From contig JARGPI010000030.1 in assembly GCA_029213005.1 (NCBI GenBank), positions 3,984-67,983 of the forward strand: a DNA stretch of 64,000 bases. The letters run 5' to 3'. The notes beneath the pieces are model-generated. The model saw only the letters and a program-made list of their open reading frames with translations, was not told the DNA's origin and did no database searches. A program made the position numbers and the translations under genes. The DNA comes from Verrucomicrobiales bacterium. GTDB lineage: Bacteria; Verrucomicrobiota; Verrucomicrobiia; Verrucomicrobiales; DEV007. This document shows, in pieces, positions 1,039 through 59,329 of the stretch; within the stretch, counting starts at the first letter, position 1; each line of letters begins with the position of its first letter.

Positions 1039-2472
1039 ATGAAAACCAAGTCTGTATTACTGGCTACTTTTGTGGCGCTGCAAACCGTGTTTGGAGCGCT
1101 CCCGGCACGTACGGAGGAGGATAAATCACCCCTTGGCCCCTGGACCGGCAGTCTCGATCTGGGCGGTAATTATCTGGAAGGAAACAGCGACCTGCTGCAT
1201 CTCTACGGCGGAGCCAAAGCCGAACGGAAATGGGACGAAAAGACGCTCCAGCTTGAGCTCGATGGGGCTTACGGCAAAAATAACGGCATTCAGGATAAAA
1301 AGTGGATCAGCGGATCGACTCAGTATAACTACGATTTCAACCATCCCTTCTACGGAGGTCTCTTCGCGGACGCGCTGCACGATGAAATCGCGGACCTGCG
1401 ATATCGGGTCACAGTTTCCCCGCTGCTCGGTATTTACCTCATCAAAACAGACCGCACCACCCTCGCTTTTGAAGCCGGTCCCTCCTATATTTTCGAAGAG
1501 CAGAATGACGTCACTGACGGCTACTTTGCTTACCGGTTTGCGCAGCGCTTCGAGCACTACCTGAGCGACTGCACCAAACTATGGCAAAGTCTCGAGTATC
1601 GTCCTGAAGCGAGCGATTTCGCGAACTATCAATTGATCGGCGAAGCCGGAATTCAGAGCTGGCTTTCCAATCGGATTTCGGCCAAAGCCTTTCTCCAGAA
1701 CCGGTATGACAATGAGCCGGGCGCGGGACAGGATTTGAACGATCTGGGAGTGTATTTCGCGCTCTCCTACGGCTCGACGAAATATAGACCCGGCATCGCT
1801 AAGCCCGCTCACTCACCCAAAGATTCCGGTGACTGGAAATTCACCGGAACCGCCGGAGGCTCAATCCTCAGCGGAAATACCGAATCAAGCGTGTATAATG
1901 CGGCTTTTACCGGAGCAAAACGCTCTGACCAGGTGGAGACAGGCTTCGGACTGAGCGGTGGATATGGAAAAGAAGCCACCGCCGTTACCGCCCAGCAATT
2001 CAGTTCCCATGCCTTCCAGAACTACGACCTCGCAAATCGATGGTATATCGGGGGACGCACCGACTTCTCGCACGACCGGGTCGCTCAACTCGACTACCGG
2101 GTCGCTTCGGGGGCCACCCTCGGTTATCGCCTGATCGATAAACCGGACTGCACCAGCCTCAAACTGGAAGGTGGCCCCGGCTATATTTTTGAAAAACAAA
2201 ACGGCACCAGCAGCTACGCCTCCCTCCGGTTTGGCGAATACTTCGAACACGCTCTGAGCCCCAGTGTAAAACTTTTTCAATCCACAGAGTATCAGGCCGC
2301 TCTGGAAGATTTCGAAGACTACCTCTTGATCAATAAAGGCGGGGTCGATTTCTGTATCAGCAAAAACTGGACGTGGACAAACGCGGTTGTCCATACTTAC
2401 GACAACACTCCGGCTCCGGGGCTGGAGGAAAGCGACGTCTCCGTTCTCAGCGGCATTAAGTGGACTTTTTAG
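1039..2472 (+). CDS. Outer-membrane beta-barrel protein with two tandem DUF481 (YdiY-like) domains
   Basis: Signal peptide, then two homologous halves (WTGSLDLGGNYLEGNSD ... YDNEP / WKFTGTAGGSILSGNTE ... YDNTP), both with LEAGPSY/LEGGPGY motifs; C-terminal WTF OMP signal. Confidence 0.8.
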   Translation: MKTKSVLLATFVALQTVFGALPARTEEDKSPLGPWTGSLDLGGNYLEGNSDLLHLYGGAKAERKWDEKTLQLELDGAYGKNNGIQDKKWISGSTQYNYDFNHPFYGGLFADALHDEIADLRYRVTVSPLLGIYLIKTDRTTLAFEAGPSYIFEEQNDVTDGYFAYRFAQRFEHYLSDCTKLWQSLEYRPEASDFANYQLIGEAGIQSWLSNRISAKAFLQNRYDNEPGAGQDLNDLGVYFALSYGSTKYRPGIAKPAHSPKDSGDWKFTGTAGGSILSGNTESSVYNAAFTGAKRSDQVETGFGLSGGYGKEATAVTAQQFSSHAFQNYDLANRWYIGGRTDFSHDRVAQLDYRVASGATLGYRLIDKPDCTSLKLEGGPGYIFEKQNGTSSYASLRFGEYFEHALSPSVKLFQSTEYQAALEDFEDYLLINKGGVDFCISKNWTWTNAVVHTYDNTPAPGLEESDVSVLSGIKWTF

Positions 2473-5248
2473 TCGACGCCAAAACCTCTACGTGAGCGAC
2501 AACACTCGCGGCCAGTGCCGAAGGATCGTAGCCGCCTTCCAGTAGAGAAATCAATCTCCCCTCGCAAACCCGATCGGCCACATCTCTCGCCATCTGACTC
2601 ACGGTCGCAAATCCATCCATCGTGATTTGGAGATCTGCCATCGGGTCTTCAATCGCTGCGTCGAATCCGGCTGACACGATCAGGCACTCTGGAGAAAAGG
2701 CCTCTACCTTAACGAGGGCTTTCTCCCACGCCTCAATAAAAGGGACATCACCAGCCCCCAGAGGGAGCGGTAGATTGAGAGTCGTTCCGACCCCATCACC
2801 GGCACCGGTTTCCTCAGCCAATCCGGTATAGGGAAAAATCCCCTCCTGATGAGTTGATACATAGAAAACATCCGGCGATTCATAGAAAATGTCCTGAGTC
2901 CCATTTCCATGATGGACATCCCAATCAAGAATCGCAACACGGCCTACACCGTGCTTTTTCTGAAGGTAGCGAGTCAATACCGCAACGTGATTGAAAATAC
3001 AGAATCCCATTCCGCGGTCAGCCGTGGCGTGGTGTCCCGGAGGCCGCACCGCACAGAAAGCACGATTAACGCTGCCCGACATCACTTCATCGCCGGCCTG
3101 CAACACGCCGCCGAGCGCTTCCATCACCACATCGTAGGAATCTTCGCAAACTGCGGTGTCTCCAGTTCGGAGACAATCCCGGAATTCTTCGATATCGATC
3201 CTGACCAGATCGTGGTAGTGCGCAGTGTGAACCAGCAAAACCTCATCCACAGTCGCTTTGCGATCAGGAATGCGTTTCACATTCCCTATGGATTCCAGAG
3301 CGTCCAGAACCGCGCGGTAACGCTCCGCTGATTCCGGGTGATCTTTACCTGTCTCGTGCTTCAGTAAATTTTCCGATAGATAAATACCCAGAACCGGATC
3401 CAGCCCATCGCTCTTCAAGTCGAGGAGCTTTTCGGTATCCATCCAGAATTCGTTACTGTCTTCACCGGGAAGATTCTCTTTCCGCGCCCCGAAGTTGGCA
3501 AACAGGCGCGCCATCGGCACATTTCTCTTGAGAACGCTGGCCCAGAATTGCTTGATCCCCCGCTCCCGCGCGATCACCGCCATTTCCCGAAGTAAATATT
3601 GTGCGATACCTTTCCGCCTTGTTCTCTCATGAACCAGAAATGCAATTTCCGCAGTTGTCTCCGTCGAATCGACATAGAAGCGACCAACCGCGCGCAGATC
3701 TTCGCGAAGGTGGTTCCGATAGAAAACCCCCAGCGCCAAATCCTTTGATTGATCGACCGAAGACATGCGGTACGCAGTTTGCTCATCCAGCTTCGGCATC
3801 GCATAGCCGTAGCGAAGCCGGATCGTCTCTTCGTCCTGAGCATAGAAAAATTCCTGGAGCGATCTCATGTCACTGGGGTGCAGCGGTCGAACAACATATT
3901 GGATCCCCGAAAAATTGACCTTTTTGATTTCGATCTCATCATCGTCCGCCCGCGATTTCCCGGTGGTCGCCCCGAAAGTTTTCGGTATCCATCCCTGCCC
4001 CCGGGCACCTTCCAGCAGCGCCTCCTGAAACCGGGGATGAGCAATCTCTACTAATCGAAGCACCCGTTGACGGATACTTTGACCTACCAGGTTCGCGACG
4101 CCGAACTCCGTAACAACGTAGTGAACATCGCCACGCGAGGTGCAGACCCCGCTACCCGCCGACAGACCGGGAACAATCCGCGAAGCGCGCCCTCCGTTCC
4201 GGGTCGCGGTTAGTACAATAATGGGTCGCCCCGCCTTACTCCCTGCCGCACCGCGAATAAAGTCCTGCGTTGCCCCAATGCCCCCGTAAAAGCGGTGCCC
4301 CCTTGAATCGCGGACCACCTGACCGGTCAGATCAACCTCCCGGGCTCCATTGATGGCTACCATATTCGGATGTTTCCCGATACGATGTGGGGCATTGGCC
4401 CATTCCGAGCTATGCATTTCGATCTCCCGGTTCCCGTCGACAAAATCATATAGTTCCTGAGTTCCCAGACAATGAGTTGCTACCGTGACACCGTTCTGAT
4501 ACTCCTTTTTACGATTGGTGACGACTCCCGATTTGACGAGATCCATCATCGCATCGGTAAAACAACCGGTATGGATTCCCAAATCACGATGCCCGTGCTT
4601 CAGTGCCTCCAACACCGTCTGAGGACAGTCACCCAGACTCGCCTGAATCGTGGAACCATTGTCAATCAACTGTGCGGCGTACTCCGCGATTTTGCGATGG
4701 CGTTCACTGTGGAGTTTGGGCTCCATTGTCATCAGCGGCGTATCGAGTTCCACCGAGTAATGAATCGCGTCCATCGGAATGACGGAATCCCCGAAAGTAG
4801 TGGGAATGTGTTTGTTGATCTGCGCGACCACAGTCCGGGCATTTCGAATCGCCGAACATAGCACATCGGCACTGACTCCCAGCGAAACCATACCGTTGGC
4901 ATCGGGCGGGCTCACCTGGATCAGCGCGACATCCAGCTTGATCACCCCTTTATCAAAAAGCCGGGGGATGTCCGACATCGGACAGGGCGTATAGTCCGCG
5001 TAACCTTCATTTACCGCCTCCCACATCGTCCGGGTCAGGAAAAAGGTGTTGGTCCGGAAATGCCCTCGATACCGGGGCTCCAGCCAGGGCAGCTCTCCCA
5101 GGGTATGAATATGCATCCACTCCACGTCCTGAAATGAGTCGGCCTTTTTCAACAACTGATCGACGAGGCCGTATGGGACGCTGGCTCCACCACCCAGAAA
5201 GAGGCGGCCACCGTTCGGGAGAATTTTCTGCCAGGGAATATTCATCAT
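2456..5248 (-). CDS. Triple fusion: acetyl-CoA hydrolase/transferase-like domain + GNAT acetyltransferase + histone deacetylase-family (AcuC/HDAC) domain
   Basis: aa ~1-425: ALIQVSPPDANGMVSLGVS, AINGAREVDLTGQV, TSRGDVHYVVTEFGVANL, LVEIAHPRFQ. aa ~445-610: VRPLHPSD ... AEIAFLVHERTRRKGIA ... NVPMARLF. aa ~620-925: HPESAER, RPPGHHA, GFCIFN, LDWDVHHGNGTQ, SAGFD, LEGGY. Confidence 0.9.
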   Translation of the reverse strand: MMNIPWQKILPNGGRLFLGGGASVPYGLVDQLLKKADSFQDVEWMHIHTLGELPWLEPRYRGHFRTNTFFLTRTMWEAVNEGYADYTPCPMSDIPRLFDKGVIKLDVALIQVSPPDANGMVSLGVSADVLCSAIRNARTVVAQINKHIPTTFGDSVIPMDAIHYSVELDTPLMTMEPKLHSERHRKIAEYAAQLIDNGSTIQASLGDCPQTVLEALKHGHRDLGIHTGCFTDAMMDLVKSGVVTNRKKEYQNGVTVATHCLGTQELYDFVDGNREIEMHSSEWANAPHRIGKHPNMVAINGAREVDLTGQVVRDSRGHRFYGGIGATQDFIRGAAGSKAGRPIIVLTATRNGGRASRIVPGLSAGSGVCTSRGDVHYVVTEFGVANLVGQSIRQRVLRLVEIAHPRFQEALLEGARGQGWIPKTFGATTGKSRADDDEIEIKKVNFSGIQYVVRPLHPSDMRSLQEFFYAQDEETIRLRYGYAMPKLDEQTAYRMSSVDQSKDLALGVFYRNHLREDLRAVGRFYVDSTETTAEIAFLVHERTRRKGIAQYLLREMAVIARERGIKQFWASVLKRNVPMARLFANFGARKENLPGEDSNEFWMDTEKLLDLKSDGLDPVLGIYLSENLLKHETGKDHPESAERYRAVLDALESIGNVKRIPDRKATVDEVLLVHTAHYHDLVRIDIEEFRDCLRTGDTAVCEDSYDVVMEALGGVLQAGDEVMSGSVNRAFCAVRPPGHHATADRGMGFCIFNHVAVLTRYLQKKHGVGRVAILDWDVHHGNGTQDIFYESPDVFYVSTHQEGIFPYTGLAEETGAGDGVGTTLNLPLPLGAGDVPFIEAWEKALVKVEAFSPECLIVSAGFDAAIEDPMADLQITMDGFATVSQMARDVADRVCEGRLISLLEGGYDPSALAASVVAHVEVLASTKKST

Positions 5249-6879: not shown

Positions 6880-9800
6880 ATGAAGCAGGTGCTTTTTGCC
6901 TTTTTTCTGATTTATTGTGTATTAGGACAGTCCGCTGAGGTGGTTACAGTGGTGCAGGAGCCGTTTCCTGTGTTCGAATCTAAGTCCGATTTCGATACCC
7001 CGGCTTTCATCGATATTTCAGAGGATGAACAGAGACTCGTTCTCGGAACTCAACGGGAATTGCACGTCTATGACTTATCATCCCGCTGTTTACTGATCCG
7101 GGTTCCCCACCCTGCCTCGAGCTTTTTCGCAGGAGCGGCTTTGGCCCCGGAGGGCCGCAATCTCATCTTTCATCGCACTGTTCCACCCAACTACCCGAAG
7201 ATTCCGTGCCTGCTCAATATCGAATCCGGCGAGATCGAGGACCTCGAATTGGAAGAACCATTTCCCACTGAAAATTGGATCATCACTGCCGGTGAAGAAA
7301 CCGTGACTTTCAAACCCGCCACTCGCGGCAAATCGATTACCCGCCCACTGAGATCTGGATCTCCCCTGCTGTATTCAGGCCTTCCGATGGCAGATGGGTC
7401 CCGGCTCGTCTGGCACGGAGGCGACCACATTCAGTTGCGAAGTAAAAACGGCAACACCACTTCGATCAATTTGATCACCAATCCGGAACTTCGTTTCACA
7501 GCCTTTCCCGAGGTTAGCTTTTCTACGAAAAATCAGCCCGTCATTGCGACACAGGAGCGCGGTCAAATTCACGTGATCGATATCGTAACTGACGACCTAA
7601 TCGCCACTTTTCCAGGCAGTCGACCTCAAATGGACGAAAAAGGCGAGACGATTGCTTTAGTTTCACCGGGGGGATCGATAGAAATATATAACATACCTTC
7701 CGCCACCCGGACAGCCACCTATACCAGTAGTGAACCCTATCCGAAATTCTCGTTAAGCGCGAACGGATTGCGTCTCGCTATCTGGCAGAAATCGACAAAA
7801 TCGGTGCAGGACATTTCACTGTCGACCCGACAATCTCAGTCATTTGATTGGCCTTTTGCACAAGACTGGGAAGCCCCGGTTCATCTGACCTATAGCCCCG
7901 ACGGTTCACAACTGGCTATCGCTCCGAGCGGAGTGATCGACGAAGAATCTCTTCGACTCGCCAACACCGCGAGCGGTCAAATCATAGAAATCCCCGGGGC
8001 TTCCAAACCCGCCTTTGACCGGACCGGCCGCCTGTTAGCCTTCACTAAGTTTCGAGGTCGAGGCACTGGCTCCGTGAGCGTCTATGATATATCGAAAGAA
8101 GCTATCGTTTACGAATCTCCCGATTTTGATCTCGCTGGGTTTGGGCCCGACAGTTTGTCTTTCTCACCTGACTCACAAAGCATCTACATCCCGAACGGAA
8201 TCGAAGGCATCCTTCAACTAAATCTGGTTCACGATGCTGAAAAGGGTCCGAACCTCGTCTGTCAGGGCGACTACACTTTCCGAACGTTCCCTCAGTCAGG
8301 CACTCATCTCTGGGCGATTCGGGCGACTGGTGAATTAGCCCTTGTCGACCTACCATCAGGAACCGAAGCCCTTCGAGTGCTTCCCTTCAGTAACGGGCAC
8401 GTCATATCTATCAAACCCGATCATCACTACTCAGGACGCCCTGAAACGCTTGATGCAATTGCCTTCAAAAAAGGACTGCACGCCTGGCCGGTTGAGCAAT
8501 TTGACCTGGCTCTGAACCGGCCTCACGAGATCCTGGAAATTCTGGATGCGCCATCGGAACAGGTCGACTTATTTCGCAGTGCCTTTGAAAGACGGCAGCG
8601 ACGTTTCGGTTACAAATCCGAACCATTCCAATTTGGCCTCCCGGAAATTGAAATCACCAACCAAAAAGATATACCGATTGCTACCGAACAGGAATCGATC
8701 AATCTAAGTTACCGGGCAACTCCGTCCGCAGCTCCGCTAAAGCAAGTTCAGCTCTACATAAACGAAGTCCCTGTCGAGACCTTTACCCCGGATAGTGGAA
8801 CCGCATCGGCTGAACTTGAGCCCGGCTCCAACAAAATCCAGCTATCCGTGATTGATACCACCGGGGCAGAGTCACTTCGCGAGACCTTGTTTGTGAATCG
8901 TCAAACCACTGAAACGCAGCTCCCGGATCTATACCTTTTCGCTGTAGGAGTATCCAAATACAAACATGCAAATGATCTGGACGTCGCAGCCAAAGACGCT
9001 ACCGATTTAGTAAACCTACTCGCCAGAGGCGAAGGTAGTCGTTTCCGGAAAGTCCATTCACAGATCCTACTGGATGAACTGGCAACCCGTGAGAACATCC
9101 TGGAAAAAGGGCGATTTCTGGAACAGAGCAAAGTGGGAGATCAAATCATCATCTTTATAGCCGGACACGGTCTGCAGGACCGGAACTACGACTATTGGTT
9201 TGCCACCCACGATATCGATCCGGAGACTCCATCGCAGCGGGGACTAAGCTATGATGAACTGGAAGGCTTATTCCCCCCCGCCCCGGCCAGAAAACGGCTT
9301 CTCATCATGGACACCTGCTTCGCCGGCGAGGTCGACCGCGAGGATCTCGCTCTCGCTGCCGGAAAAAAAGTGCTCCCGCCCGGTGTCAGAGTCCGGGTCG
9401 TAAAAAGAAGCGGCCCCTCTGCGGAAAACATACCACTCAGTGAAACCGGACGGGTCCTCACCAACCGGTTCGCCGATTTTAGAAGACGAACCGGTGCGAC
9501 GGTACTAACCGCATCCAGCGGTATGGAATTTGTTTTTGCTCTGGAGAACGAAGCGCTGGGAAACGGAGTTTTCACCCATTCCCTGATGGAAGGAATCACA
9601 ACCGGAGAGGCTGATACCAACGATGATGGGAAAATTCAGGTCTCAGAGTGGCAACGATTCGGTATCGACCGGGTGATCGCGTTAACCGGAGGAGAGCAGC
9701 GCCCCACCGGAAGGCAGCTGAATCGCGAGTTGGACTTTGATATCGCTGATGTCGGGCCGCCCCTGCTTTTTCCCAAAGAGTGGTCAATCACTGAACAAAC

Positions 9801-10119
9801 CAACGCAGCTAACGGAAACTGGAAAATCGAATGGGACTGCGCGCTCGATAAAGTCGGCAAGCGGATCTCAGGCGAAGGGAGAAAAGTCAGAGTCAACGAC
9901 AAACCGGCATCCCGCGGCGAACGGAAGACCATCTTTCGCTTCGAAGCCAACCTCAATGGAAAAAATGCATCAGGCCGGTCAGAAGAGGTCGCAGCCAACG
10001 GTAAAAGAATCCCCGGAATCGTGACTCTCTATTTCAGCAAAGACCTCCAAACCCTGAGCGGAACGCTAAACGATATGGAAGGGAATCACATCAGCGATCT
10101 ATCGGGCGTCGCGAAGTGA
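6880..10119 (+). CDS. Exported WD40/beta-propeller + Ig-like + caspase (peptidase C14) multidomain protein
   Basis: Signal peptide; repeated propeller blades (LTYSPDGSQLAI, AFDRTGRLLAF, LSFSPDSQSIYI); caspase region LYLFAVGVSKY, FIAGHG (His), IMDTCFAG (Cys), GNGVFTHSL. Confidence 0.85.
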   Translation: MKQVLFAFFLIYCVLGQSAEVVTVVQEPFPVFESKSDFDTPAFIDISEDEQRLVLGTQRELHVYDLSSRCLLIRVPHPASSFFAGAALAPEGRNLIFHRTVPPNYPKIPCLLNIESGEIEDLELEEPFPTENWIITAGEETVTFKPATRGKSITRPLRSGSPLLYSGLPMADGSRLVWHGGDHIQLRSKNGNTTSINLITNPELRFTAFPEVSFSTKNQPVIATQERGQIHVIDIVTDDLIATFPGSRPQMDEKGETIALVSPGGSIEIYNIPSATRTATYTSSEPYPKFSLSANGLRLAIWQKSTKSVQDISLSTRQSQSFDWPFAQDWEAPVHLTYSPDGSQLAIAPSGVIDEESLRLANTASGQIIEIPGASKPAFDRTGRLLAFTKFRGRGTGSVSVYDISKEAIVYESPDFDLAGFGPDSLSFSPDSQSIYIPNGIEGILQLNLVHDAEKGPNLVCQGDYTFRTFPQSGTHLWAIRATGELALVDLPSGTEALRVLPFSNGHVISIKPDHHYSGRPETLDAIAFKKGLHAWPVEQFDLALNRPHEILEILDAPSEQVDLFRSAFERRQRRFGYKSEPFQFGLPEIEITNQKDIPIATEQESINLSYRATPSAAPLKQVQLYINEVPVETFTPDSGTASAELEPGSNKIQLSVIDTTGAESLRETLFVNRQTTETQLPDLYLFAVGVSKYKHANDLDVAAKDATDLVNLLARGEGSRFRKVHSQILLDELATRENILEKGRFLEQSKVGDQIIIFIAGHGLQDRNYDYWFATHDIDPETPSQRGLSYDELEGLFPPAPARKRLLIMDTCFAGEVDREDLALAAGKKVLPPGVRVRVVKRSGPSAENIPLSETGRVLTNRFADFRRRTGATVLTASSGMEFVFALENEALGNGVFTHSLMEGITTGEADTNDDGKIQVSEWQRFGIDRVIALTGGEQRPTGRQLNRELDFDIADVGPPLLFPKEWSITEQTNAANGNWKIEWDCALDKVGKRISGEGRKVRVNDKPASRGERKTIFRFEANLNGKNASGRSEEVAANGKRIPGIVTLYFSKDLQTLSGTLNDMEGNHISDLSGVAK

Positions 10120-25652: not shown

Positions 25653-27494
25653 TTATCTCAAACCGTCTCCTAGAGTTTTTATCATTCGGCCAAGAATAAT
25701 TTCAGTCTCTTCATGAGACACCAATACATTTGATTCAGATAGAAGGTTCCGATGGTAGAATGACCAATTACTAAATTCTTGAGCAGCCCTAAGATCCGAC
25801 ATTTGTTGCCGGGTCGACACCAAAAACCGTCCATAAGTCCGCATTGCTTCTCTACCGCCGTTAGCAGAACCTGAATCCTTCAGCATTTTATTCAGTTTGA
25901 AAATATTTTTGACAATTATGTGCTCTTTGTATTCATCCAAAATATCCCCTACTACGTATTCTCCCTTAACCGAAAGGTCTCTATCAAAGTAAACCCCATC
26001 TATTTTTACTTCCAAAAACTTCATGAGGTGAATTAACCTAACGTTTGCCTTCATATCTCTGAAAACCTCTGCTTCTGCCATAAAGTTGCGAACATCGATT
26101 CGATCCCAATTCCGAATTGCTCTGGGCCGCAAACCAAACCGTCTCACTTTGTCAAAGCCAGTTCCTTTCGACCAGATATCATCCCTGCCTCGCTTCGCAA
26201 ACGTTGACACGCCAACGACCGTAAAAGTTTCGGCATGGACTATAGGCCCTCCACTGTTGCCTTGAACAATTCCCGACGAAATCTCTAACCGATCTGGACC
26301 CAAACCCGTTACCTCCCCATCGAGGATCTTAATTACCCCTGCTCCATGACTGTTTCCGATGGCTGAAATTTTTTCGCCGTCTGCTATATTAATCGTTCCT
26401 TCGTCCAAGATGAGTCCTTTTTTACGCCTATGCTTGAGCTTAAATCTAAGGATGTCACCATCAGCAAATCCTTCACCAGCTAATTCGGTGGTTTCGACGT
26501 CAAAAAATTCGTCGCCATGCCGGTTTACCATCTTCAATTGTTTGTTTCCCGCCACCACATGCGCATTTGTATAAATATACGATTTATCTGAACTTGAAAC
26601 GAGAAATCCCGTCCCACTCCCAGCGTCGCCTTCTATTAAAACTACACAATCAGCGGCGTCATCCATAGAAGAAGGCTTCCACACCGTATCTCCCTCAACA
26701 AATTTCGATGAAATCACGTTTTTATCATGAGCAAGAAAAACGCCGTCCTGATTGACCGAAATCACAGCATTGCTCTGACTGAGAATTGGAGCAGTGCTAC
26801 CACGCGCGGGTGAACTCGGAGCCATTATCTGATATTTGGTTCTCAAGTTTTGATCCAACTCGGTGAATGGTATCGTCCTTACACCAGAAGAATATCGAAT
26901 GACAATTCCGTTGTGAACAACATTAACAACCTTAGCTTTCGGATACAAGTTGCCTTTCAAATCAACAATATCAGTCCCCTCTACACCAGTAGATTCAGTC
27001 TTCGAAAGCAGATCAAAATCGGTTTTAGGAATCCACTGAGAGTTATAACGAACATATCCGTTAGCCAACATCTGGCTTGCTGATAAATATTTTCCCTTGA
27101 TTGATTCCAGATTAGTTTTTGCTCCGGGATATTTGTCTATCAAGCTCTGAAGATTCCTCAGTTCCGTTTTGAGAACCTCGTGATCTCTCTGGCTTGCCAG
27201 ATCTCCATGAGGAGCGGCAAAATATTGCACAGCCTTCACAAGATTAGATTTTATGACTCGGCTGCCACCTGTATTGGGGAAAACAGTGACCGTAACACTG
27301 AACTTCTGAAGATTTCGAAACGGAATAGCTTCGGCGAATTGGTCACTTAGGTTACCTGGAACAAAGATCAACACCCCCTTAGGGAATTCTTCTGCTCTCC
27401 CTAATTCCAACAGGAAAAAGAGCCACACAAAAACTAACCATTTATTTCTAAGGACGAAACACTCATAACGATCCAACAACCGTAACACTCTCAT
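25653..27494 (-). CDS. Exported trypsin-like (S1) serine protease
   Basis: GSGTGFL, YTNAHVV (His), GDIL (Asp), GNSGGP (Ser); N-terminal hydrophobic segment; visibly AT-richer than neighbours. Confidence 0.85.
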   Translation of the reverse strand: MRVLRLLDRYECFVLRNKWLVFVWLFFLLELGRAEEFPKGVLIFVPGNLSDQFAEAIPFRNLQKFSVTVTVFPNTGGSRVIKSNLVKAVQYFAAPHGDLASQRDHEVLKTELRNLQSLIDKYPGAKTNLESIKGKYLSASQMLANGYVRYNSQWIPKTDFDLLSKTESTGVEGTDIVDLKGNLYPKAKVVNVVHNGIVIRYSSGVRTIPFTELDQNLRTKYQIMAPSSPARGSTAPILSQSNAVISVNQDGVFLAHDKNVISSKFVEGDTVWKPSSMDDAADCVVLIEGDAGSGTGFLVSSSDKSYIYTNAHVVAGNKQLKMVNRHGDEFFDVETTELAGEGFADGDILRFKLKHRRKKGLILDEGTINIADGEKISAIGNSHGAGVIKILDGEVTGLGPDRLEISSGIVQGNSGGPIVHAETFTVVGVSTFAKRGRDDIWSKGTGFDKVRRFGLRPRAIRNWDRIDVRNFMAEAEVFRDMKANVRLIHLMKFLEVKIDGVYFDRDLSVKGEYVVGDILDEYKEHIIVKNIFKLNKMLKDSGSANGGREAMRTYGRFLVSTRQQMSDLRAAQEFSNWSFYHRNLLSESNVLVSHEETEIILGRMIKTLGDGLR

Positions 27495-27711
27495 TGTAAG
27501 CTTGTATAATACTGTTCAACAAAATATCAAATTAATTTGACCACCTGTTGACTAAATTCCTCCTCCCCCGGAATTGACCAAGTGACAATTCCTCAAACAG
27601 ATCATCCGTGTCAATTCATCGACAAAATACTATCACTGATTTGTAAAAGTTCGGCATGATGCGAACGAAGGAATCCCTTTAAATCATTACCGTTTCATCT
27701 AGCTTCCGGTC

Positions 27712-28383
27712 ATGGATTTATTGGAAGCGATCAAGGGCCGGGCTTCGACTCGGGCTTTCTTAGACAGGCCGGTAGCGAAAGAAACGATTCACGAGGTGTT
27801 AGAGGCGGCCCGGTGGGCCCCTTCAGGAACGAATACTCAGCCCTGGCAGGTTGCTGTTGTTGCCGGGGAAATTAAAGAGCAGATTTCCAACAAGATCGTA
27901 GAAAAGTTTACTGCCGGAGAGGAATCTGCAAAAGACTATCAATACTACCCGGAAACGTTCACCGAGCCCTACCGCTCCCGGCGTGTCGCCTGTGGAAAAG
28001 CGCTCTACGGTGCCCTTGGCATCGAACGAAAAGATCGCGAACGCAGAAAGCAGCAGTGGGTAGCGAATTATCACGGGTTCGGCGCTCCCGTTGAATTGTT
28101 TATCTTTATCGATGGCGGACTCGAAAAGGGATCCTGGGTCGATATGGGTATGTTTATTCAGAACATCATGCTGGCAGCCCGGGCCTTCGATCTCGAAACC
28201 TGCGCTCAGGCGGCGATGGCCGAGTATCCTGACATTGTTCGAAACGCACTGGACATTCCCGATTCCCTGAAACTGATCTGTGGAATCGCGATAGGCTATC
28301 CCGACCGGGACGATCCGGTTAACCAATACCGCACCGAGCGCGAAGAGGTGGATCGCTTCACAAACTGGTACGGATTGGAGTAG
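27712..28383 (+). CDS. Nitroreductase family protein
   Basis: AIKGRASTRAF, ARWAPSGTNTQPW, DMGMFIQNIMLAA, IAIGYPD. Confidence 0.93.
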   Translation: MDLLEAIKGRASTRAFLDRPVAKETIHEVLEAARWAPSGTNTQPWQVAVVAGEIKEQISNKIVEKFTAGEESAKDYQYYPETFTEPYRSRRVACGKALYGALGIERKDRERRKQQWVANYHGFGAPVELFIFIDGGLEKGSWVDMGMFIQNIMLAARAFDLETCAQAAMAEYPDIVRNALDIPDSLKLICGIAIGYPDRDDPVNQYRTEREEVDRFTNWYGLE

Positions 28384-29485: not shown

Positions 29486-31348
29486 ATGAAAATTACCAAA
29501 GAACACATCGAACACGTCGCCGGAGACATGGAAGTCTCCTACGAGGAACTGGAGAAATTTGCTGCTTTGGGAGAAGAAAAAGTTTTCGCGAAAGGTGACT
29601 ATCTGTTTCACGAATCCGCTCCGCGGAAATGGTTCGGTATTGTTCTGATCGGTAAAATCAATCTGCAGCGGGGACTCGCGGGACGCAGCGTTACGATCGC
29701 CTGCCTTGGCGAAGGCGCGGTCATCGGGGAATCCCTTTTCATCGATGATTTGGACCACAGCGTTTCGGGCCTCGCTCTGGAGGAATCTCATATCTGGACG
29801 ATTTCGAAAGAGAATATCGAGAACTTCCGCCGCGAAAAACCGGAAATTTACTATCATATCGTGCGTCGGGCCGCCCGGCGAACCAGCGCCCGGCTCAGAG
29901 AGACCACTGAGATGTTGCTTCATTCTGAGCATCAGAGAAGTGACATCACCGACTACCGGCGGGAACACGATTCCCTTGGCGATCGCGAAGTTTCGAACGC
30001 TCACTACTACGGGGTGCAGACCACCCGGGCGATGGAGAACTTCACTTTCTCCGGAGTGAAACTCTCTCATTTCCAACATCTTGTGAACGCCTTCGCCTAC
30101 GTCAAAAAGGGCGCGGCGATTGCGAACTCCATCCTCGGGGTTCTCGACCCGAAAATATCCGATGCGATTTGCGCTGCCTGCGACCGGATTCTCGCCGGGG
30201 AATTTCATGAACATTTTGCGGTCGATATGGTGCAGGGCGGAGCCGGAACCTCGTCGAACATGAATGCGAATGAGGTCATCGCCAATATCGCACTCGAGAT
30301 CATGGGGCACCGGAAGGGGGAATACCGCTACTGCCACCCGAATGACCACGTCAATTGTTCACAGTCAACCAACGACGCTTATCCCACCGCCGTAAAAATA
30401 GCGGTAGTCGCTTCGACTCACGAAACGGTTTCGGCGTTGAAAGTCCTCCGAAAATCATTTCAGGCAAAAGCCGAGGAATTTTCCGACGTCATCAAAATGG
30501 GACGGACCGAGAACCAGGACGCCGTCCCGATGACTCTGGGACAGGAATTTGCCGCTTACGGCGTGATGGTAAATGATGGAATTCGTCGTCTCGAACGGAT
30601 CTCCGAAGAATTGCTCATCGTGAATATGGGCGCAACCGCGATCGGGACCGGCCTTAACAGTCCGCAGGGATACGCCGCGCTCTGCACCCGGAAAATCAAT
30701 GAACTGAGCGGGCTTCACGTCAAACTCGCCCATGACCTGGTCGAAGCGACCCAGGATGCCGGGGACTTTGCGGAAATGAGCAGTGCTCTAAAGGTCACGG
30801 CGATTCAGATTTCAAAAATCTGCAATGACCTCCGCTGGGGATCTTCCGGCCCCCGATGTGGACTGGGCGAGATCAATCTCCCGCCGATGCAACCGGGCTC
30901 CTCGATCATGCCCGGGAAAGTGAATCCAGTGATCCCCGAGGTGGTGAACCAGATTTGTTATCAGATCATCGGGTCTGACCTGACCGTATCGATGGCCGCC
31001 GAAGCCAGTGAGTTCGAATTGAACATGGCCGAGCCAATCATGACCTACAATTTGCTGAGCAGTCTCATGCTTTTGAAAAACGCGGCGATCGTTCTCTCGA
31101 CCCGCTGCGTCAACGGGATCACTGCGAACCGGGAAAAGTGCGCCAACTACGTCAAGAACTCGATTGGGATCGTGACCGCGCTCAATCCGGTTCTGGGTTA
31201 CGAGAAGTCCGCATCGATCGCCAAAGAAGCGCTCGCCACCGACCGCAGCGTCTATGAACTGGTTCTGGAAAAAGGCTGGATCACCAAGAAGCGTCTCGAT
31301 GAACTGCTCAAGCCCGAGAAGATGGCGAATCCATTGCTCAGCGAGTGA
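29486..31348 (+). CDS. aspA: Aspartate ammonia-lyase with an N-terminal cyclic-nucleotide-binding-like domain
   Basis: AspA part from ~aa 150: REHDSLG, YYGVQT.RA.ENF, QGGAGTSSNMNANEVIAN, HPNDHVN, GSSIMPGKVNPV; aa 1-145 CAP/cNMP fold (FAKGDYLFHE, GEGAVIGE). Confidence 0.9.
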   Translation: MKITKEHIEHVAGDMEVSYEELEKFAALGEEKVFAKGDYLFHESAPRKWFGIVLIGKINLQRGLAGRSVTIACLGEGAVIGESLFIDDLDHSVSGLALEESHIWTISKENIENFRREKPEIYYHIVRRAARRTSARLRETTEMLLHSEHQRSDITDYRREHDSLGDREVSNAHYYGVQTTRAMENFTFSGVKLSHFQHLVNAFAYVKKGAAIANSILGVLDPKISDAICAACDRILAGEFHEHFAVDMVQGGAGTSSNMNANEVIANIALEIMGHRKGEYRYCHPNDHVNCSQSTNDAYPTAVKIAVVASTHETVSALKVLRKSFQAKAEEFSDVIKMGRTENQDAVPMTLGQEFAAYGVMVNDGIRRLERISEELLIVNMGATAIGTGLNSPQGYAALCTRKINELSGLHVKLAHDLVEATQDAGDFAEMSSALKVTAIQISKICNDLRWGSSGPRCGLGEINLPPMQPGSSIMPGKVNPVIPEVVNQICYQIIGSDLTVSMAAEASEFELNMAEPIMTYNLLSSLMLLKNAAIVLSTRCVNGITANREKCANYVKNSIGIVTALNPVLGYEKSASIAKEALATDRSVYELVLEKGWITKKRLDELLKPEKMANPLLSE

Positions 31349-34725: not shown

Positions 34726-37700
34726 TCAGCGTCTCCCCCTGTTCCAGCCCAGCGTGGAAATCCGGAAGGAGATCAGACCGAACAAATCGGTGAGATCATC
34801 CAGAAAACAATAAATCGCGGGGATAAAAACCAGGGTCAGAACCGTGGAAAAGGAAAGTCCGCATACCACCACCACTGCGAGCGGTCGATACAACTCGGCG
34901 CCGGTTCCGTATCCGAGAGCCAGAGGAAACATTCCCAGAACGGTGGTCAAAGTCGTCATCAAAATCGGCCTCAGCCGAGTCAACCCGGCATTGATGATTG
35001 CCTCGTTCCTCGGTTGGCCCCGCGCCCGGAGTATATTGATGTAGTCGATCAAAATAATCGCATTGTTTACCACGATCCCCGCCAGCATAATGATACCGAT
35101 CATCGCTGTCAGCGAAATCAACTCCCCACTTAAATTCAAGCCCAGCACCGCTCCGATCAGTGACAACGGAACGGAAAACATAATCGTAAAAGGATGTATC
35201 AAACTCTCAAACTGACTCGCCATAATCATATAGACCAAAACGATCGCGACAATGAAGGCGTACACGAGATACCCGAGCGATTCGTGCATCGCTGCGGAGG
35301 AACCACCGAGCACCGCGCGATAGCCGGATTCCCGATAGGGAGCCACAGCCCGGGCGACCGGTTCCGCGAGCCGAGCCTCCACTTCCTCCAGCGAAAGGTT
35401 GTCTTTATCAATAAAAATCGGCACCGTCATAATCCGCTCCCGTTCCTCACGGTTAATCAGTCCGGGGCCGGCCTGCGATTCCACCGTCGCGACATCTCTC
35501 AATTTCCAGACCTGCCCGGTTACCGGCGAAATGATATCGAGATTAAGTAGATCATTCTCGCTATTCACCTTCGCTGCTGAAGAGAGCATAATATCATAGG
35601 AGGTATTGTTGATTTCTATATCAGTCACCTGATTCCCTGCTACTGCAGCTTCAACCTGATCCGCAATATCACTTAACGTCAGTCCGCGATCCGCGGCTGC
35701 CTCCCGTTTCACTTTCAGGACCCGCTCCGGCATCCCTTTTGGAATTTGCCCCAAACTGGTGATTCCATAGTTAGCTCGTTTTTCCGAAAGCTCCCCCAAG
35801 AGCCCACCTTCCCCATCGGCTCCAGTCAGAATTTCCCGAATCGTTACCAGATCCGGGCCGGTTAATTTTAAAAGGATATCTCCCTGACTGGTTCCGAGCA
35901 GGTTCTGAATCGGGTTAAGGCTCTGAAGCTGGAAATCGAGAAACGTATCGCGCAACCCGGGATCGTTGGCGAGTGCATCCATCACCGGCGCCAGTTCTTT
36001 GACCGGCTGAACCTGACCATCCATCACCTCCGCTTTATCAAAACTGGCGATCACCCTGACCTCACGGGGCGACACCGAGACGCTGTAGTGACTTAAGGTC
36101 CCGATCCCCCCCAGTTTCGTTTCAATAGCGCGGGCCGAAAGATCTACGGCATCGAGAGTCTGCCCCGCCCTCGCCCGCAACGCCAACTGATAGCTCTCCA
36201 CTTTCGTCTCAGGGAAAAACTCAGCGGAGGGAAGCTGGTAGATCGTTACCACAAACGCGAGTGCCATAATCAGGATCAAAAGCACCCGCACTGCTACCGA
36301 TTCGATCACCGTTTTCAGAATGAGTCGATACCCGTTCGATACCGCTTTTGCGAACTGAACGAGGGGCCACAGCACAAATTGAATGGCGCGGTTGAGCCAA
36401 TCGAAGACCGCGAATTTCATACCCATCACTTTGAAAGTGAGCATTGGTATCAAGGTGAAAGCCACTACCATCGAAAAGATCAAAGTGTAGGTAATCACCC
36501 AGGAAAGATCGCGAAAAATCTGTCCGGCAATCCCGGGAACAAACACCACCGGCAAAAATACCGCGATCGTTGTCAGGGTGCTCGCCCAGACCGCAGGACC
36601 GATCTCTGCAATTGCCTCCATCACCGCTTTTTTGAACCTCCGTTCGTGCGACATCTTCTGGAAGATCGCTTCGGTCACCACAATCGCATTATCGACCACC
36701 ATGCCGACAGCGAGGGTCAAACCGGCCATCGAGAAAATATTGATACTGATCTTCCCCGCATAAAACAGGGAAAACGTCGCGATCACCGACACCGGCATCG
36801 CCAACACCACGATAAAGGTCGACTGGAACCGGCCCAGAAACACCAGTAGAATGATGCTGGCTAAAATCAGCCCCATCAATCCATTGGACCGCACCATATC
36901 GAGCGATTCCTTGATGAAAACCGACTCGTCGTAGGCAATGGTGATTTGCAGAGGTGGTGCCAGCTTGGTCAGCTCCTCTGCCGAAACATTCGGCGCATCG
37001 CGCCGGGTCAGATCAACGAGGACTTCGGCCTGCACCTCACGGGCGGAACTACAGATTTCAACCGAGTTTCCCCCACCCTTTTTATAAATCGAAACCTCGA
37101 CTGATGACGTCGCAAGGTCTGCGGCACGGGTCTTCAACCGGGCGTAACTCGCCGCACTTTTTTCAACCTCGCGGGAGCTAACCTGCGCCACCTCGCCAAG
37201 CCGCCGAATTTCACTACCCGGCGGACTGACAATAAGCAGGGACAGATTCTCGATCGATACTGCGCCCACAGTCCGAATGAGAAAAAGACTGTCACCTTCC
37301 TGTAGTTTCCCGCCCCGTTGAGACAGGTTTTCCCGTCCCAGCGCATCCCGCACCGCAAGTATAGAAAGACCCACAGCGCGTAACTTATCAGGATCGGCCC
37401 GGACCTGAACTTCATATTCTTTCCCGCCCTGCACCTCAACCGCCGCCACTCCGTTGAGCCGTTCCAGGCGGGGCTTAATGGTACGCAGTACGACATCTCT
37501 CAATTCATCGGGATGAACCGGATTCGACGCAGCGGGGTTCGATGCGATATTTAACACCATCACCGCACCGGAGGAGGAGGCACCTTTGAGAACGATCGGC
37601 TCCTCAGCTTCCTCCGGCAGATCGCTTCGAACCTCATCCAGCTTGGCCCTCACATCCATCGCGGCGAGATCCATATTGGTTCCCCATTGAAACGTCAGAT

Positions 37701-37968: not shown

Positions 37969-37989
37969 AAAATCAGCGAGATAAAGGGA

Positions 37990-38335: not shown

Positions 38336-38352
38336 ATCGGTAAAACTCATCA

Positions 38353-43879: not shown

Positions 43880-43912
43880 AGCTCCCTCCGGGCCACGAGC
43901 AGACCGTATTAA

Positions 43913-59175: not shown

Positions 59176-59329
59176 ACCGCTATACTGATAGTTTTTTGAG
59201 AGGCTGTAAAGAAGCAGAGGTTCTCCCCTGACAAAACTTAACCCTTCATCCCGCGATCCCGTAGATCGCAAATTTTTGGGCCGATTTGGATGAAACCGGA
59301 GGTTAGAGTGTGTCCCTGAGCTATTTTTC

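What the first reader, a model, noticed from the sequence alone, without database searches (positions are those of the whole stretch)
2456..5248. Acetylation writer, eraser and acyl-CoA module in one protein
Seen: one uninterrupted 930-aa ORF with CoA-transferase-like, GNAT and HDAC-family domains. The HDAC keeps the His pair (PGHH), the Zn ligands (D-V-H; GFD) and the EGGY Tyr. The GNAT keeps the acetyl-CoA-binding R-x-x-G-x-A (RRKGIA). Known: CoA-transferase+GNAT fusions exist, and AcuA/AcuC or Pat/CobB pairs reversibly acetylate acyl-CoA synthetases, but as separate proteins. Inference: a bifunctional acetylation switch whose direction is set by acyl-CoA level. The substrate could instead be a small molecule such as a polyamine.
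Basis: partly seen in the sequence, partly recalled or inferred. Interest (0 to 1): 0.85.

Follow-up and report, generated by a model that had tools for sequence, protein, structure and literature searches.

The report
Fused lysine acetyltransferase–deacetylase with dead CoA-transferase
One 930-residue bacterial protein joins an enzyme predicted to add acetyl groups to proteins, an enzyme predicted to remove them, and a disabled CoA-transferase that probably acts as a sensor; the same design arose twice in different phyla and has not been studied, so it could show how the two opposing activities are coordinated.

Summary
Window 2456-5248 holds one 930-aa ORF, on the minus strand, with three domains: a 4-hydroxybutyrate-CoA-transferase-like domain, a GNAT and a Zn-dependent HDAC.

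It is not an assembly artefact. Full-length homologues occur in about 72 protein clusters, including Rubritalea, Coraliomargarita and Thalassobacterium isolates. In 53 of 76 informative Verrucomicrobiota genomes the same HDAC is a separate gene immediately downstream, usually with an ATGA overlap.

- **The CoA-transferase domain lacks its catalytic Glu.** Gly228 is invariant in the clade and the GGQ motif is altered, so this is a conserved pseudo-enzyme: a likely sensor or scaffold, not an acyl-CoA enzyme.
- **The GNAT is Pat-type.** Its closest solved relatives are the protein lysine acetyltransferases that acetylate acyl-CoA synthetases.
- **The HDAC is class II (HdaH/HDAC6-like), not AcuC.** Its gatekeeper residue is hydrophobic, which argues against a polyamine substrate.

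A second clade in Myxococcota-like MAGs fused a class I HDAC to the same scaffold, which is convergent evolution. No paper in the held library describes either architecture.

Best reading: a self-contained reversible lysine-acetylation module, in which ligand control through the dead CoA-transferase domain is inferred. It is a new variant of a known kind. The biochemistry is untested.

The parts
2456..5248 (-). Complete 930-aa ORF: pseudo-CoA-transferase, Pat-type GNAT and class II HDAC
   Evidence: ORF listing and translation. Pfam domains. Full-length homologues. AlphaFold2 model with mean pLDDT 86.8 and pTM 0.63.
3971..5221 (-). 4-hydroxybutyrate-CoA-transferase-like domain (aa 10-426), predicted to be catalytically dead
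   Evidence: Sequence match to PDB 9vag at E 6e-108, and to 3eh7, 2oas, 3d3u and 3gk7. Foldseek match to 2oas with TM 0.92 and rmsd 1.9 A. Mean identity within the family is 0.64, as high as for the GNAT.
4565..4567 (-). Gly228 codon, at the position of the catalytic Glu nucleophile (E238 of C. aminobutyricum AbfT)
   Evidence: Alignments to five solved enzymes all show H-[ST]-E-M against H-T-G-C here. Gly is found in 72/72 fused and 46/46 two-domain relatives. In the clade it is Gly in 119/120, against Glu in 28/28 stand-alone transferases.
4259..4282 (-). GIGATQDF (aa 323-330), an altered form of the GxGGQxDF signature
   Evidence: The preceding loop, residues 315-324, is the lowest-confidence segment of the model.
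3416..3907 (-). Pat-type GNAT domain (aa 448-611)
   Evidence: A profile of the domain hits SlPatA 4nxy (E 1.9e-17), EcPatZ 9isq (3.7e-14), MtPat 4ava (1.1e-10) and MsPat 4orf (2.6e-9) over the whole domain. Other GNATs match only the acetyl-CoA core. The best NCBIfam GNAT hit is mycobacterial Pat.
3647..3649 (-). Glu534 codon (in AEIAF), aligned with the Glu of the AE[IV]AF segment in MtPat and SlPatA
   Evidence: Alignment. Invariant in 72 fused and 47 two-domain relatives. Its role as general base comes from my knowledge of Pat enzymes and was not tested.
3602..3619 (-). RRKGIA (aa 544-549), the acetyl-CoA pyrophosphate-binding motif R/Q-x-x-G-x-G/A
   Evidence: R544 and G547 are invariant, and position 549 is Ala or Gly.
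2474..3400 (-). Class II (HdaH/HDAC6-like) Zn-dependent deacetylase domain (aa 617-925)
   Evidence: Sequence matches to HDAC6 at E 2e-106 (both catalytic domains of HDAC6 match) and to HDAH 1zz0 at 4e-59. Foldseek matches to HdaH, 5ji5 and Kdac1 8szt. The stand-alone partner genes of relatives are 53-59% identical.
3029..3034 (-). His739-His740 catalytic dyad
   Evidence: Invariant in 72/72. Aligned to HDAC6 and HDAH.
2912..2920 (-). Asp777-Val-His779 Zn ligands
   Evidence: D777 and H779 are invariant in 72/72.
2660..2662 (-). Asp863, the third Zn ligand
   Evidence: Invariant in 72/72.
2639..2641 (-). Met870, the substrate 'gatekeeper' position (Lys330 in zHDAC6 CD1, Leu in CD2, Glu274 in HDAC10)
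   Evidence: Alignment to HDAC6 CD1 (GDPKGG) and CD2 (GDPLGG). The family shows L50, M11, I7, V4 and never Glu or Lys. The rule comes from PMC5454378.
2528..2530 (-). Tyr907 (LEGGY), the transition-state-stabilising Tyr
   Evidence: Present in 71/71 aligned sequences.

Best explanation
The gene encodes a self-contained reversible lysine-acetylation module.

- **Writer.** The central Pat-type GNAT domain uses acetyl-CoA (or another short acyl-CoA) to acylate a lysine on target proteins. By analogy with every characterised Pat-type enzyme, the most likely targets are AMP-forming acyl-CoA synthetases such as Acs.
- **Eraser.** The C-terminal class II Zn-dependent deacetylase hydrolyses the same modification.
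- **Regulator.** The N-terminal domain is a 4-hydroxybutyrate-CoA-transferase fold that has lost its glutamate nucleophile. It therefore cannot run the covalent ping-pong CoA-transfer reaction. It is retained under strong constraint as a non-catalytic module that most likely binds CoA or an acyl-CoA and/or drives oligomerisation. This parallels the dead NDP-forming acyl-CoA-synthetase-like domain of PatZ.

A Zn deacetylase needs no cosubstrate. An unregulated pair would therefore simply hydrolyse acetyl-CoA through a protein intermediate, so ligand binding at the pseudo-enzyme domain is proposed to bias the balance between writing and erasing.

Shown here: the domain identities, the state of every catalytic residue, conservation, the alternation between fused and adjacent genes, and convergent fusion in a second phylum.

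Inferred: both enzymatic activities, the protein substrate, ligand binding by the dead domain, and reciprocal control.
For: 1. All three domains are real and fold confidently.
2. GNAT Glu534 and R544-x-x-G547-x-A549 are invariant. HDAC His739/His740, Asp777, His779, Asp863 and Tyr907 are invariant in about 72 fused homologues.
3. The closest solved relatives of the GNAT, over its full length, are only Pat-family protein acetyltransferases.
4. The HDAC gatekeeper is hydrophobic, as in lysine deacetylases, not Glu as in the polyamine deacetylase HDAC10.
5. Gly replaces the CoA-transferase nucleophile in 119/120 clade members, against Glu in 28/28 stand-alone enzymes. Even so, the domain is as conserved as the GNAT (0.64 mean identity, against 0.29 for the linkers).
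6. Of 76 informative GTDB loci, 16 are fused, 53 have the orthologous HDAC gene immediately downstream (48 of these with a 4-nt ATGA overlap), and 2 have it within 2-3.4 kb. No third gene is conserved nearby.
7. A second clade of at least 113 triple fusions in Myxococcota-like MAGs carries a class I-type HDAC. It is only 27-32% identical to this HDAC domain, whereas unrelated stand-alone HDACs are 41-49% identical. That indicates independent recruitment of a deacetylase to the same scaffold.
8. Precedents in the literature:
   - Acetyl-CoA binding to PatZ's non-catalytic regulatory domain activates its GNAT (PMC12184503).
   - RpPat and the Zn deacetylase LdaA act on the same acyl-CoA synthetases (PMC6640162).
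   - AcuA and AcuC need a sensor, AcuB (PMC13121692).
Against: - No activity has been measured for any member.
- No acyl-CoA synthetase gene lies in the window or next to any of the 80 related loci, so the substrate rests on family analogy only.
- Ligand binding by the dead domain is inferred from conservation alone.
- Other CoA-transferase-GNAT proteins keep the Glu (39 of 71 representatives) and have no adjacent HDAC. The N-terminal domain's role may therefore differ between lineages.
- Bacterial cluster 1b HdaH enzymes failed to deacetylate B. subtilis AcsA in vitro (PMC11532494).
- pTM 0.63 gives no reliable inter-domain geometry.
Confidence: 0.55

Rival explanations
1. The protein is a small-molecule acetylation/deacetylation enzyme. 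GNAT and HDAC act on a polyamine, amino sugar, amino acid or xenobiotic amide rather than on proteins. Examples of such chemistry are HDAC10 and APAH with acetylpolyamines, and DmhA and PrpH with amide xenobiotics.
For: Bacterial cluster 1 HDAC homologues include dimethoate and propanil hydrolases, and some show little peptide deacetylase activity (PMC11532494; PDB hits 9gkw and 9gku). The substrate was not tested here.
Against: The gatekeeper is Leu, Met, Ile or Val and never Glu. The GNAT groups with Pat-family protein acetyltransferases over its whole length, including the N-terminal RP-x-x-P-x-D segment. No transporter or biosynthetic genes are conserved nearby.
Confidence: 0.12
2. The deacetylase mainly resets the enzyme itself. 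The Pat-type GNAT auto-acetylates, as reported for PatZ, and the tethered HDAC removes those marks. The fusion would then tune the acetyltransferase's own oligomeric or active state rather than erase marks on substrates.
For: PatZ autoacetylation controls its oligomeric state (PMC6456759). The GNAT-HDAC linker is very short, with only residues 612-616 at low confidence, which would favour action in cis or within an oligomer.
Against: The split form, with a free 314-aa HDAC, is the commoner state at 53 of 76 loci, so tethering is not required. Known Zn deacetylases paired with Pat or AcuA act on the substrate synthetases.
Confidence: 0.1
3. The N-terminal domain is still an enzyme with non-canonical chemistry, for example an acyl-CoA thioesterase or a supplier of acyl-CoA to the GNAT. 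The protein would then be a trifunctional metabolic enzyme, not a regulated switch.
For: Only four positions differ systematically from active transferases (E228G, F259H, S301G, S322G), so the pocket is largely preserved. From my own knowledge, changing the nucleophile Glu to Asp in glutaconate CoA-transferase yields a hydrolase. The second clade carries Asp at this site. Many CoA-transferase-GNAT relatives keep Glu and GGQ.
Against: Gly cannot form the acyl-enzyme anhydride or the enzyme-CoA thioester. The GGQ signature is also altered. No compensating invariant acidic residue specific to the clade was found.
Confidence: 0.1
4. The long ORF is an assembly chimera or a stop-codon-loss artefact that joins two neighbouring genes.
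For: In most relatives the two genes are separate and overlap by ATGA, so a single indel could fuse them.
Against: The identical 930-aa protein is found on an independent Logan contig. Fused forms occur in about 72 clusters at 47-100% identity, including isolate genomes of four Rubritalea species, Coraliomargarita sp. W4R53 and Thalassobacterium maritimum. The linker region is in frame and modelled without a break.
Confidence: 0.01

Closest known systems
Pat/PatZ (YfiQ) with a deacetylase (CobB), Salmonella and E. coli; class I-alpha, type I bacterial lysine acetyltransferases
   Same: A C-terminal Pat-type GNAT domain follows a large N-terminal domain derived from a CoA-metabolising enzyme that no longer performs its ancestral catalysis. 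In PatZ that domain binds acetyl-CoA and allosterically activates the GNAT.
   Different: The regulatory domain here is a 4-hydroxybutyrate-CoA-transferase fold, not an NDP-forming acyl-CoA-synthetase fold. The eraser is a Zn-dependent HDAC fused in cis, not a separate NAD-dependent sirtuin. The current five-type classification lists no such architecture.
RpPat with LdaA of Rhodopseudomonas palustris
   Same: A Pat-type acetyltransferase and a Zn-dependent HDAC-family deacetylase act on the same AMP-forming acyl-CoA synthetases (PMC6640162). This is the nearest functional precedent for the writer/eraser pair proposed here.
   Different: They are separate proteins, and RpPat has the usual synthetase-like regulatory domain.
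AcuA/AcuB/AcuC of Bacillus subtilis
   Same: One locus encodes three functions: a GNAT writer (AcuA), a Zn-dependent eraser (AcuC) and a metabolite sensor (AcuB) that coordinates them (PMC13121692). The three-domain protein has the same logical composition.
   Different: AcuA is a single-domain GNAT. AcuC is class I-like (cluster 2c), whereas this domain is class II-like. The sensor there is a Bateman+ACT protein that binds adenine nucleotides, not a CoA-transferase fold. All three are separate polypeptides next to acsA, and no acs gene is linked here.
4-hydroxybutyrate CoA-transferase (AbfT; PDB 3gk7, 2oas, 9vag) and butyryl-CoA transferase RipA
   Same: The fold and sequence match: 30-40% identity over about 410-435 aligned columns, TM up to 0.92.
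   Different: The nucleophile Glu is replaced by Gly228 and GGQ has become GAT. The domain is not a member of the family in the catalytic sense.
Bifunctional antagonistic regulators such as isocitrate dehydrogenase kinase/phosphatase AceK and glutamine synthetase adenylyltransferase GlnE (from my own knowledge)
   Same: One polypeptide both installs and removes a covalent regulatory mark, with the direction set by metabolites.
   Different: Those enzymes use phosphorylation or adenylylation. No equivalent has been described for lysine acetylation, and reciprocal control here is only hypothesised.

Membership tests
Family I CoA-transferase, AcetylCoA_hydro / 4-hydroxybutyrate CoA-transferase subfamily | Two-lobed CoA-transferase fold with significant sequence similarity | tested here: met
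   Pfam PF02550 and PF13336. PDB 9vag at E 6e-108. Foldseek TM 0.92 to 2oas.
Family I CoA-transferase, AcetylCoA_hydro / 4-hydroxybutyrate CoA-transferase subfamily | Catalytic glutamate nucleophile (E238 in AbfT 3gk7; E249 in RipA) | tested here: not met
   Gly228 aligns with the Glu of all five solved enzymes shown. Gly is present in 119/120 clade members, against Glu in 28/28 stand-alone representatives.
Family I CoA-transferase, AcetylCoA_hydro / 4-hydroxybutyrate CoA-transferase subfamily | GxGGQxDF signature | tested here: not met
   The motif is GIGATQDF here. In the clade it reads G-[IVM]-G-[AS]-[TLQ..]-[QLI]-D-F.
Family I CoA-transferase, AcetylCoA_hydro / 4-hydroxybutyrate CoA-transferase subfamily | CoA-transfer activity, or binding of CoA esters | not testable with these tools
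   Needs an enzyme assay, ITC or a ligand-bound structure.
Pat-type (class I) bacterial protein lysine acetyltransferase | GNAT domain whose closest relatives over its full length are Pat enzymes | tested here: met
   The eight best PDB sequences in the profile search are SlPatA, EcPatZ, MtPat and MsPat, covering profile positions 4-152. Other GNATs cover only positions 83-149 or so.
Pat-type (class I) bacterial protein lysine acetyltransferase | Acetyl-CoA motif R/Q-x-x-G-x-G/A and the conserved Glu on the preceding strand | tested here: met
   R544, G547, A/G549 and E534 are invariant or near-invariant in 119 relatives.
Pat-type (class I) bacterial protein lysine acetyltransferase | Regulatory domain of a described type (NDP-forming acyl-CoA-synthetase-like, cAMP-binding, ACT or NADP-binding) | tested here: not met
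   The N-terminal domain is CoA-transferase-like. The classification is taken from PMC6456759 and PMC12184503.
Pat-type (class I) bacterial protein lysine acetyltransferase | Acetylates the active-site lysine of AMP-forming acyl-CoA synthetases | not testable with these tools
   No acs gene lies in the window or in the flanks of 80 related loci. Needs biochemistry.
Class II / cluster 1 Zn-dependent deacylase (HdaH, HDAC6-like) | His-His dyad, Asp-His-Asp metal ligands and catalytic Tyr | tested here: met
   H739, H740, D777, H779, D863 and Y907 are invariant.
Class II / cluster 1 Zn-dependent deacylase (HdaH, HDAC6-like) | Closest relatives are class II enzymes rather than class I or IV | tested here: met
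   The best PDB hits are HDAC6, HDAH, PA3774 HdaH, Kdac1 and DmhA. No class I HDAC appears among the best 60. Cluster assignment follows PMC11532494.
AcuC (cluster 2c, class I-like), the name some sources give this protein | Class I-like deacetylase encoded in an acuABC-type locus next to acsA | tested here: not met
   The domain is class II-like. There are no acuA, acuB or acsA neighbours. No AcuC crystal structure exists for a direct comparison.
Polyamine deacetylase (HDAC10 type) | Glutamate gatekeeper after the D-P of the (S/A)GFDA..DP segment | tested here: not met
   The residue is Met870 here and L, M, I or V in 72/72 relatives. The rule comes from PMC5454378. The second determinant, the L1-loop 3-10 helix, was not examined.
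Reversible lysine acetylation gene pair (writer plus eraser acting on one target) | Conserved genetic linkage of the two genes | tested here: met
   Of 76 informative loci, 16 are fused, 53 have the gene adjacent and 2 have it nearby. An independent fusion with a class I HDAC exists in a second clade.

The most novel reading that the evidence does not exclude
The protein is a true 'paradoxical' bifunctional regulator for lysine acetylation. The dead CoA-transferase domain reads the acyl-CoA/CoA state and reciprocally switches the tethered acetyltransferase and deacetylase. One polypeptide would then set the acetylation level of acyl-CoA synthetases independently of its own abundance. This would be the acetylation counterpart of AceK or GlnE, and it has been invented twice with different HDAC classes.
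Probability: 0.3. Interest if true: 0.85.

Novelty: new variant of a known kind. Interest (0 to 1): 0.68.

Why it matters
How bacteria stop a lysine acetyltransferase and a cosubstrate-independent Zn deacetylase from running a futile, acetyl-CoA-wasting cycle is an open question. For Bacillus it was answered only in 2026, with the separate sensor AcuB (PMC13121692).

Here nature has placed writer, eraser and a candidate sensor in one chain, or in two overlapping genes. It has done so twice, in two phyla and with two different HDAC classes.

This gives three things:
- a compact and tractable system for biochemistry and cryo-EM, to ask how the opposing activities are coordinated;
- a new regulatory-domain type (a pseudo-CoA-transferase) for the classification of bacterial acetyltransferases;
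- a well-supported example of a metabolic enzyme fold reused as a non-catalytic module.

It also corrects database names such as 'AcuC', 'acyl-CoA hydrolase' and 'butyrate:acetyl-CoA CoA-transferase', which would mislead metabolic reconstructions of Verrucomicrobiota.

Tried and rejected
- **Acyl-CoA synthetase or other candidate substrate in the window.** None was found among the ORFs of 500 aa or more.
- **Third conserved neighbour across 80 related loci.** All-against-all clustering of flanking ORFs found nothing shared by more than 6 loci apart from shadow ORFs. Neighbourhoods differ between the window, Rubritalea and Luteolibacter.
- **Promoter and terminator scans around the gene.** The counts were no better than in shuffled sequence, and no clear Shine-Dalgarno sequence was seen.
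- **Does loss of the catalytic Glu track HDAC linkage in the wider CoA-transferase-GNAT family?** It does not do so cleanly. Six two-domain representatives with Glu, Gln or Asp all lack an adjacent HDAC.
- **Full-length fold search.** It returned only per-domain matches and no solved multi-domain relative.
- **Neighbour-joining tree of the CoA-transferase-GNAT region.** Fused and split forms are interleaved, with at least two transitions once P0118, a truncated fused protein, is discounted. The tree has no support values, so I do not claim which state is ancestral.
- **Literature.** Searches for the architecture, for its Pfam names and for 'acetyltransferase-deacetylase' fusions found nothing relevant. 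The library lacks most subscription journals, so absence is not proof.
- **PDB 5zmp and 5ji5** (short HDAC homologues of about 310 aa). I could not trace them to a paper describing their function.

Full report
**Observation.** Window 2456..5248 contains one uninterrupted ORF of 930 codons. It lies on the minus strand, with ATG at 5248 and the stop at 2458-2456. Its 3' end overlaps a convergent DUF481 outer-membrane gene by 17 nt. Pfam finds AcetylCoA_hydro (13-169), AcetylCoA_hyd_C (262-414, E 7e-54), GNAT models (453-588, E about 1e-7) and Hist_deacetyl (637-923, E 7e-90). An AlphaFold2 model built on 46 homologues folds all three domains confidently, with mean pLDDT 86.8. Only a loop at 315-324 and a very short GNAT-HDAC linker (612-616) score poorly. 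The pTM of 0.63 does not fix the inter-domain geometry. Foldseek gives per-domain matches only: TM 0.92 to the CoA-bound 4-hydroxybutyrate CoA-transferase 2oas, and TM 0.73-0.88 to bacterial HdaH-type deacetylases.

**Not an artefact.** A search of 5.8 billion proteins returns the identical protein plus about 72 full-length three-domain clusters at 47-100% identity. All are Verrucomicrobiota. They include isolate genomes of Rubritalea squalenifaciens, R. tangerina, R. spongiae and R. marina, Coraliomargarita sp. W4R53 and Haloferula sargassicola. The same 930-aa protein with the same neighbours sits on an independent Logan contig. The closest genome is a Verrucomicrobiales MAG, 91% identical over the first 600 residues.

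**The CoA-transferase domain is a conserved pseudo-enzyme.**
- Residue-level alignments to five solved 4-hydroxybutyrate CoA-transferases show H-[ST]-E-M in all of them. By the numbering printed in the alignment, this Glu is E238 in C. aminobutyricum AbfT (3gk7). The window protein has H-T-G-C, which puts Gly228 at that position.
- The GxGGQxDF signature reads GIGATQDF.
- Gly228 is present in 72/72 fused and 46/46 two-domain relatives. In a wider comparison it is 119/120 in the clade, against Glu in 28/28 stand-alone transferases.
- Only three other positions differ systematically: F259H, S301G and S322G.
- The domain is nevertheless as conserved as the GNAT, at 0.64 mean identity against 0.29 for the linkers.
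- Family I CoA-transferases work through a covalent glutamyl intermediate (established knowledge), so this domain cannot be a canonical transferase. Its conservation points to a retained non-catalytic role.

**The GNAT is Pat-type.**
- Alone, the domain best matches the GNAT domains of Streptomyces lividans PatA (4nxy), M. tuberculosis Pat (4ava) and E. coli PatZ (9isq).
- A 10-sequence profile sharpens this. The eight best PDB sequences are all Pat enzymes aligned over the whole domain (E 2e-17 to 3e-8). Other GNATs match only the acetyl-CoA core.
- The best NCBIfam GNAT hit is mycobacterial Pat.
- Glu534 and R544-x-x-G547-x-A549 are invariant.

**The HDAC is class II-like with a complete active site.**
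- The best PDB matches are HDAC6 (both of its catalytic domains), Alcaligenes/Bordetella HDAH, P. aeruginosa HdaH, A. baumannii Kdac1 and DmhA. No class I enzyme is in the top 60.
- In the scheme of Graf et al. 2024 this is cluster 1, not the AcuC cluster 2c. The 'AcuC' names in databases are therefore misleading.
- His739/His740, Asp777, His779, Asp863 and Tyr907 are invariant in the fused family.
- The 'gatekeeper' residue is Lys in HDAC6 CD1, Glu in the polyamine deacetylase HDAC10, and Leu or Met in lysine deacetylases (PMC5454378). Here it is Met870, and it is Leu, Met, Ile or Val in 72/72 relatives.

**Fused versus split.** A pattern scan of one genome per GTDB species found 119 loci, and the best 80 were examined. 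The scan patterns were clade-specific, so the restriction to Verrucomicrobiota is partly by construction. The 80 loci break down as follows:

| State | Loci |
|---|---|
| Fused | 16 |
| Separate ~314-aa HDAC gene immediately downstream, same strand | 53 |
| HDAC 2-3.4 kb downstream | 2 |
| No HDAC within 4 kb | 5 |
| Contig ends too soon to tell | 4 |

- In 48 of the 53 split loci the stop and start codons overlap as ATGA (example L004).
- These stand-alone HDACs are the closest relatives of the fused HDAC domain, at 53-59% identity.
- A neighbour-joining tree interleaves fused and split forms, implying at least two transitions. It has no support values, so the direction is left open.
- No third gene is conserved nearby.

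**Wider family and a convergent second fusion.**
- An exhaustive HMMER search of 1.84 billion representatives shows that CoA-transferase-GNAT two-domain proteins are widespread: 68 clusters at 50% identity among the top 150 hits. They occur in Magnetococcales, Desulfobacterales, Myxococcales and others, and some carry an extra N-terminal Fe-S domain.
- In this wider family the nucleophile is Glu in 39/71, Asp in 14/71 and another residue in the rest.
- Six sampled members have no adjacent HDAC.
- One distant representative, P0127, is also a three-domain fusion. Searching with it reveals at least 113 further fused clusters of about 1000-1040 aa in Myxococcota or 'Deltaproteobacteria' MAGs.
- In that clade the Glu site is Asp in 101/113 and the GGQ motif is degenerate, while the GNAT and HDAC catalytic residues are conserved.
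- Its HDAC domain is only 27-32% identical to the window's, whereas unrelated stand-alone HDACs reach 41-49%. Its best solved relatives are class I enzymes: HDAC1/2/3, Rpd3, HDLP and HDAC8.
- Two different HDAC classes have therefore been joined independently to the C-terminus of a CoA-transferase-like Pat-type acetyltransferase. This is the strongest evidence here that the two activities belong to one process.

**Mechanism proposed.**
- *Shown:* domain identities, residue states, linkage and convergence.
- *Inferred:*
  - The GNAT acylates protein lysines. Acyl-CoA synthetases are the likeliest targets, because every characterised Pat-type enzyme has them as substrates.
  - The HDAC reverses this modification.
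  - The dead transferase domain plays the part that the dead synthetase-like domain plays in PatZ, where acetyl-CoA binding activates the GNAT and shapes the substrate pocket (PMC12184503).
- A Zn deacetylase needs no cosubstrate, so an uncontrolled pair would amount to acetyl-CoA hydrolysis. In Bacillus this problem is solved by a separate sensor, AcuB, which inhibits AcuC (PMC13121692). I propose that the pseudo-transferase domain supplies the equivalent control in cis, responding to CoA esters. That step is hypothesis.

**Comparison with what is known.** Reviews and the 2025 PatZ paper list five types of bacterial GNAT acetyltransferase. Their regulatory domains are of synthetase-like, cAMP-binding, ACT or NADP-binding kind. 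None is CoA-transferase-like and none carries a deacetylase. The 2024 survey of bacterial classical deacylases does not mention GNAT fusions. Targeted searches found no description of the architecture. The library is incomplete, so this is absence of evidence only. The nearest functional precedents are RpPat/LdaA, AcuABC and Pat/CobB. The nearest conceptual precedents are bifunctional antagonistic regulators such as AceK and GlnE (my own knowledge).

**Verdict.** This is a new variant of a known kind of system, reversible lysine acetylation. It is conserved and has evolved twice, and the biochemistry is entirely untested.

Noticed in passing
window 29486-31348 (+): A 620-aa protein fuses an N-terminal cyclic-nucleotide-binding domain (32-116) to a class II fumarase/aspartase (Lyase_1 plus FumaraseC_C). 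It may be a cNMP-regulated TCA or aspartate enzyme.
   Followed up: no
window 46131-48092 (-): A 653-aa protein combines a SAM-dependent methyltransferase domain (about 79-200) with a D-Ala-D-Ala-ligase-type ATP-grasp domain (453-644).
   Followed up: no
window 34726-45445 (-): An RND efflux cluster holds two AcrB-type pumps (34726-38055 and 38649-41900), an outer-membrane factor (43913-45445) and an unusual adaptor (41897-43879) with two N-terminal FHA-type domains in front of the HlyD membrane-fusion region.
   Followed up: no
window 6880-10119 (+): A 1079-aa protein has no real Pfam hit, only weak beta-propeller and EF-hand signals. By eye its C-terminal part carries caspase-like His/Cys dyad motifs ('IFIAGHG' ... 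'MDTCFAGE'). This was not tested.
   Followed up: no
window 57397-59331 (-): A 644-aa protein carries ankyrin repeats followed by a Kelch-type propeller, a eukaryote-like repeat combination.
   Followed up: no
window 26001-28000: G+C drops to 0.446 against about 0.53 elsewhere, over a trypsin-like peptidase gene (25653-27494, minus strand). This may be recently acquired DNA.
   Followed up: no
P0010 (homologue list): A 75%-identical three-domain homologue is deposited as a protein of the isopod Idotea baltica ('UNVERIFIED_CONTAM') on a 914-kb contig. This is evidently a verrucomicrobial contaminant in an animal assembly.
   Followed up: no
L007 8001-11042 (P0127) and P0417-P0535: A second large clade of three-domain fusions (about 1000-1040 aa, at least 113 clusters) occurs in Myxococcota or 'Deltaproteobacteria' MAGs. 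It carries a class I-type HDAC, and Asp at the transferase nucleophile site.
   Followed up: yes
P0134, P0144 (Myxococcales MAG and a Logan contig): These CoA-transferase-GNAT proteins have an extra N-terminal region of about 350 aa containing 4Fe-4S dicluster motifs. The transferase nucleophile is Gln or Val.
   Followed up: partly
P0121, P0122, P0124, P0128 and others: About 39 of 71 two-domain CoA-transferase-GNAT representatives keep the catalytic Glu, many of them together with an intact GGQ motif. In those lineages a possibly active CoA-transferase is fused to a Pat-type acetyltransferase. This is also uncharacterised, and no adjacent HDAC was found in the cases checked.
   Followed up: partly
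P0200, P0202, P0204, P0238, P0257, P0259: Six stand-alone CoA-transferase-family representatives of about 420-436 aa also have Gly at the nucleophile position. Five of them keep GGQ intact (P0204 reads GGG), which suggests further pseudo-enzyme lineages in this family.
   Followed up: no
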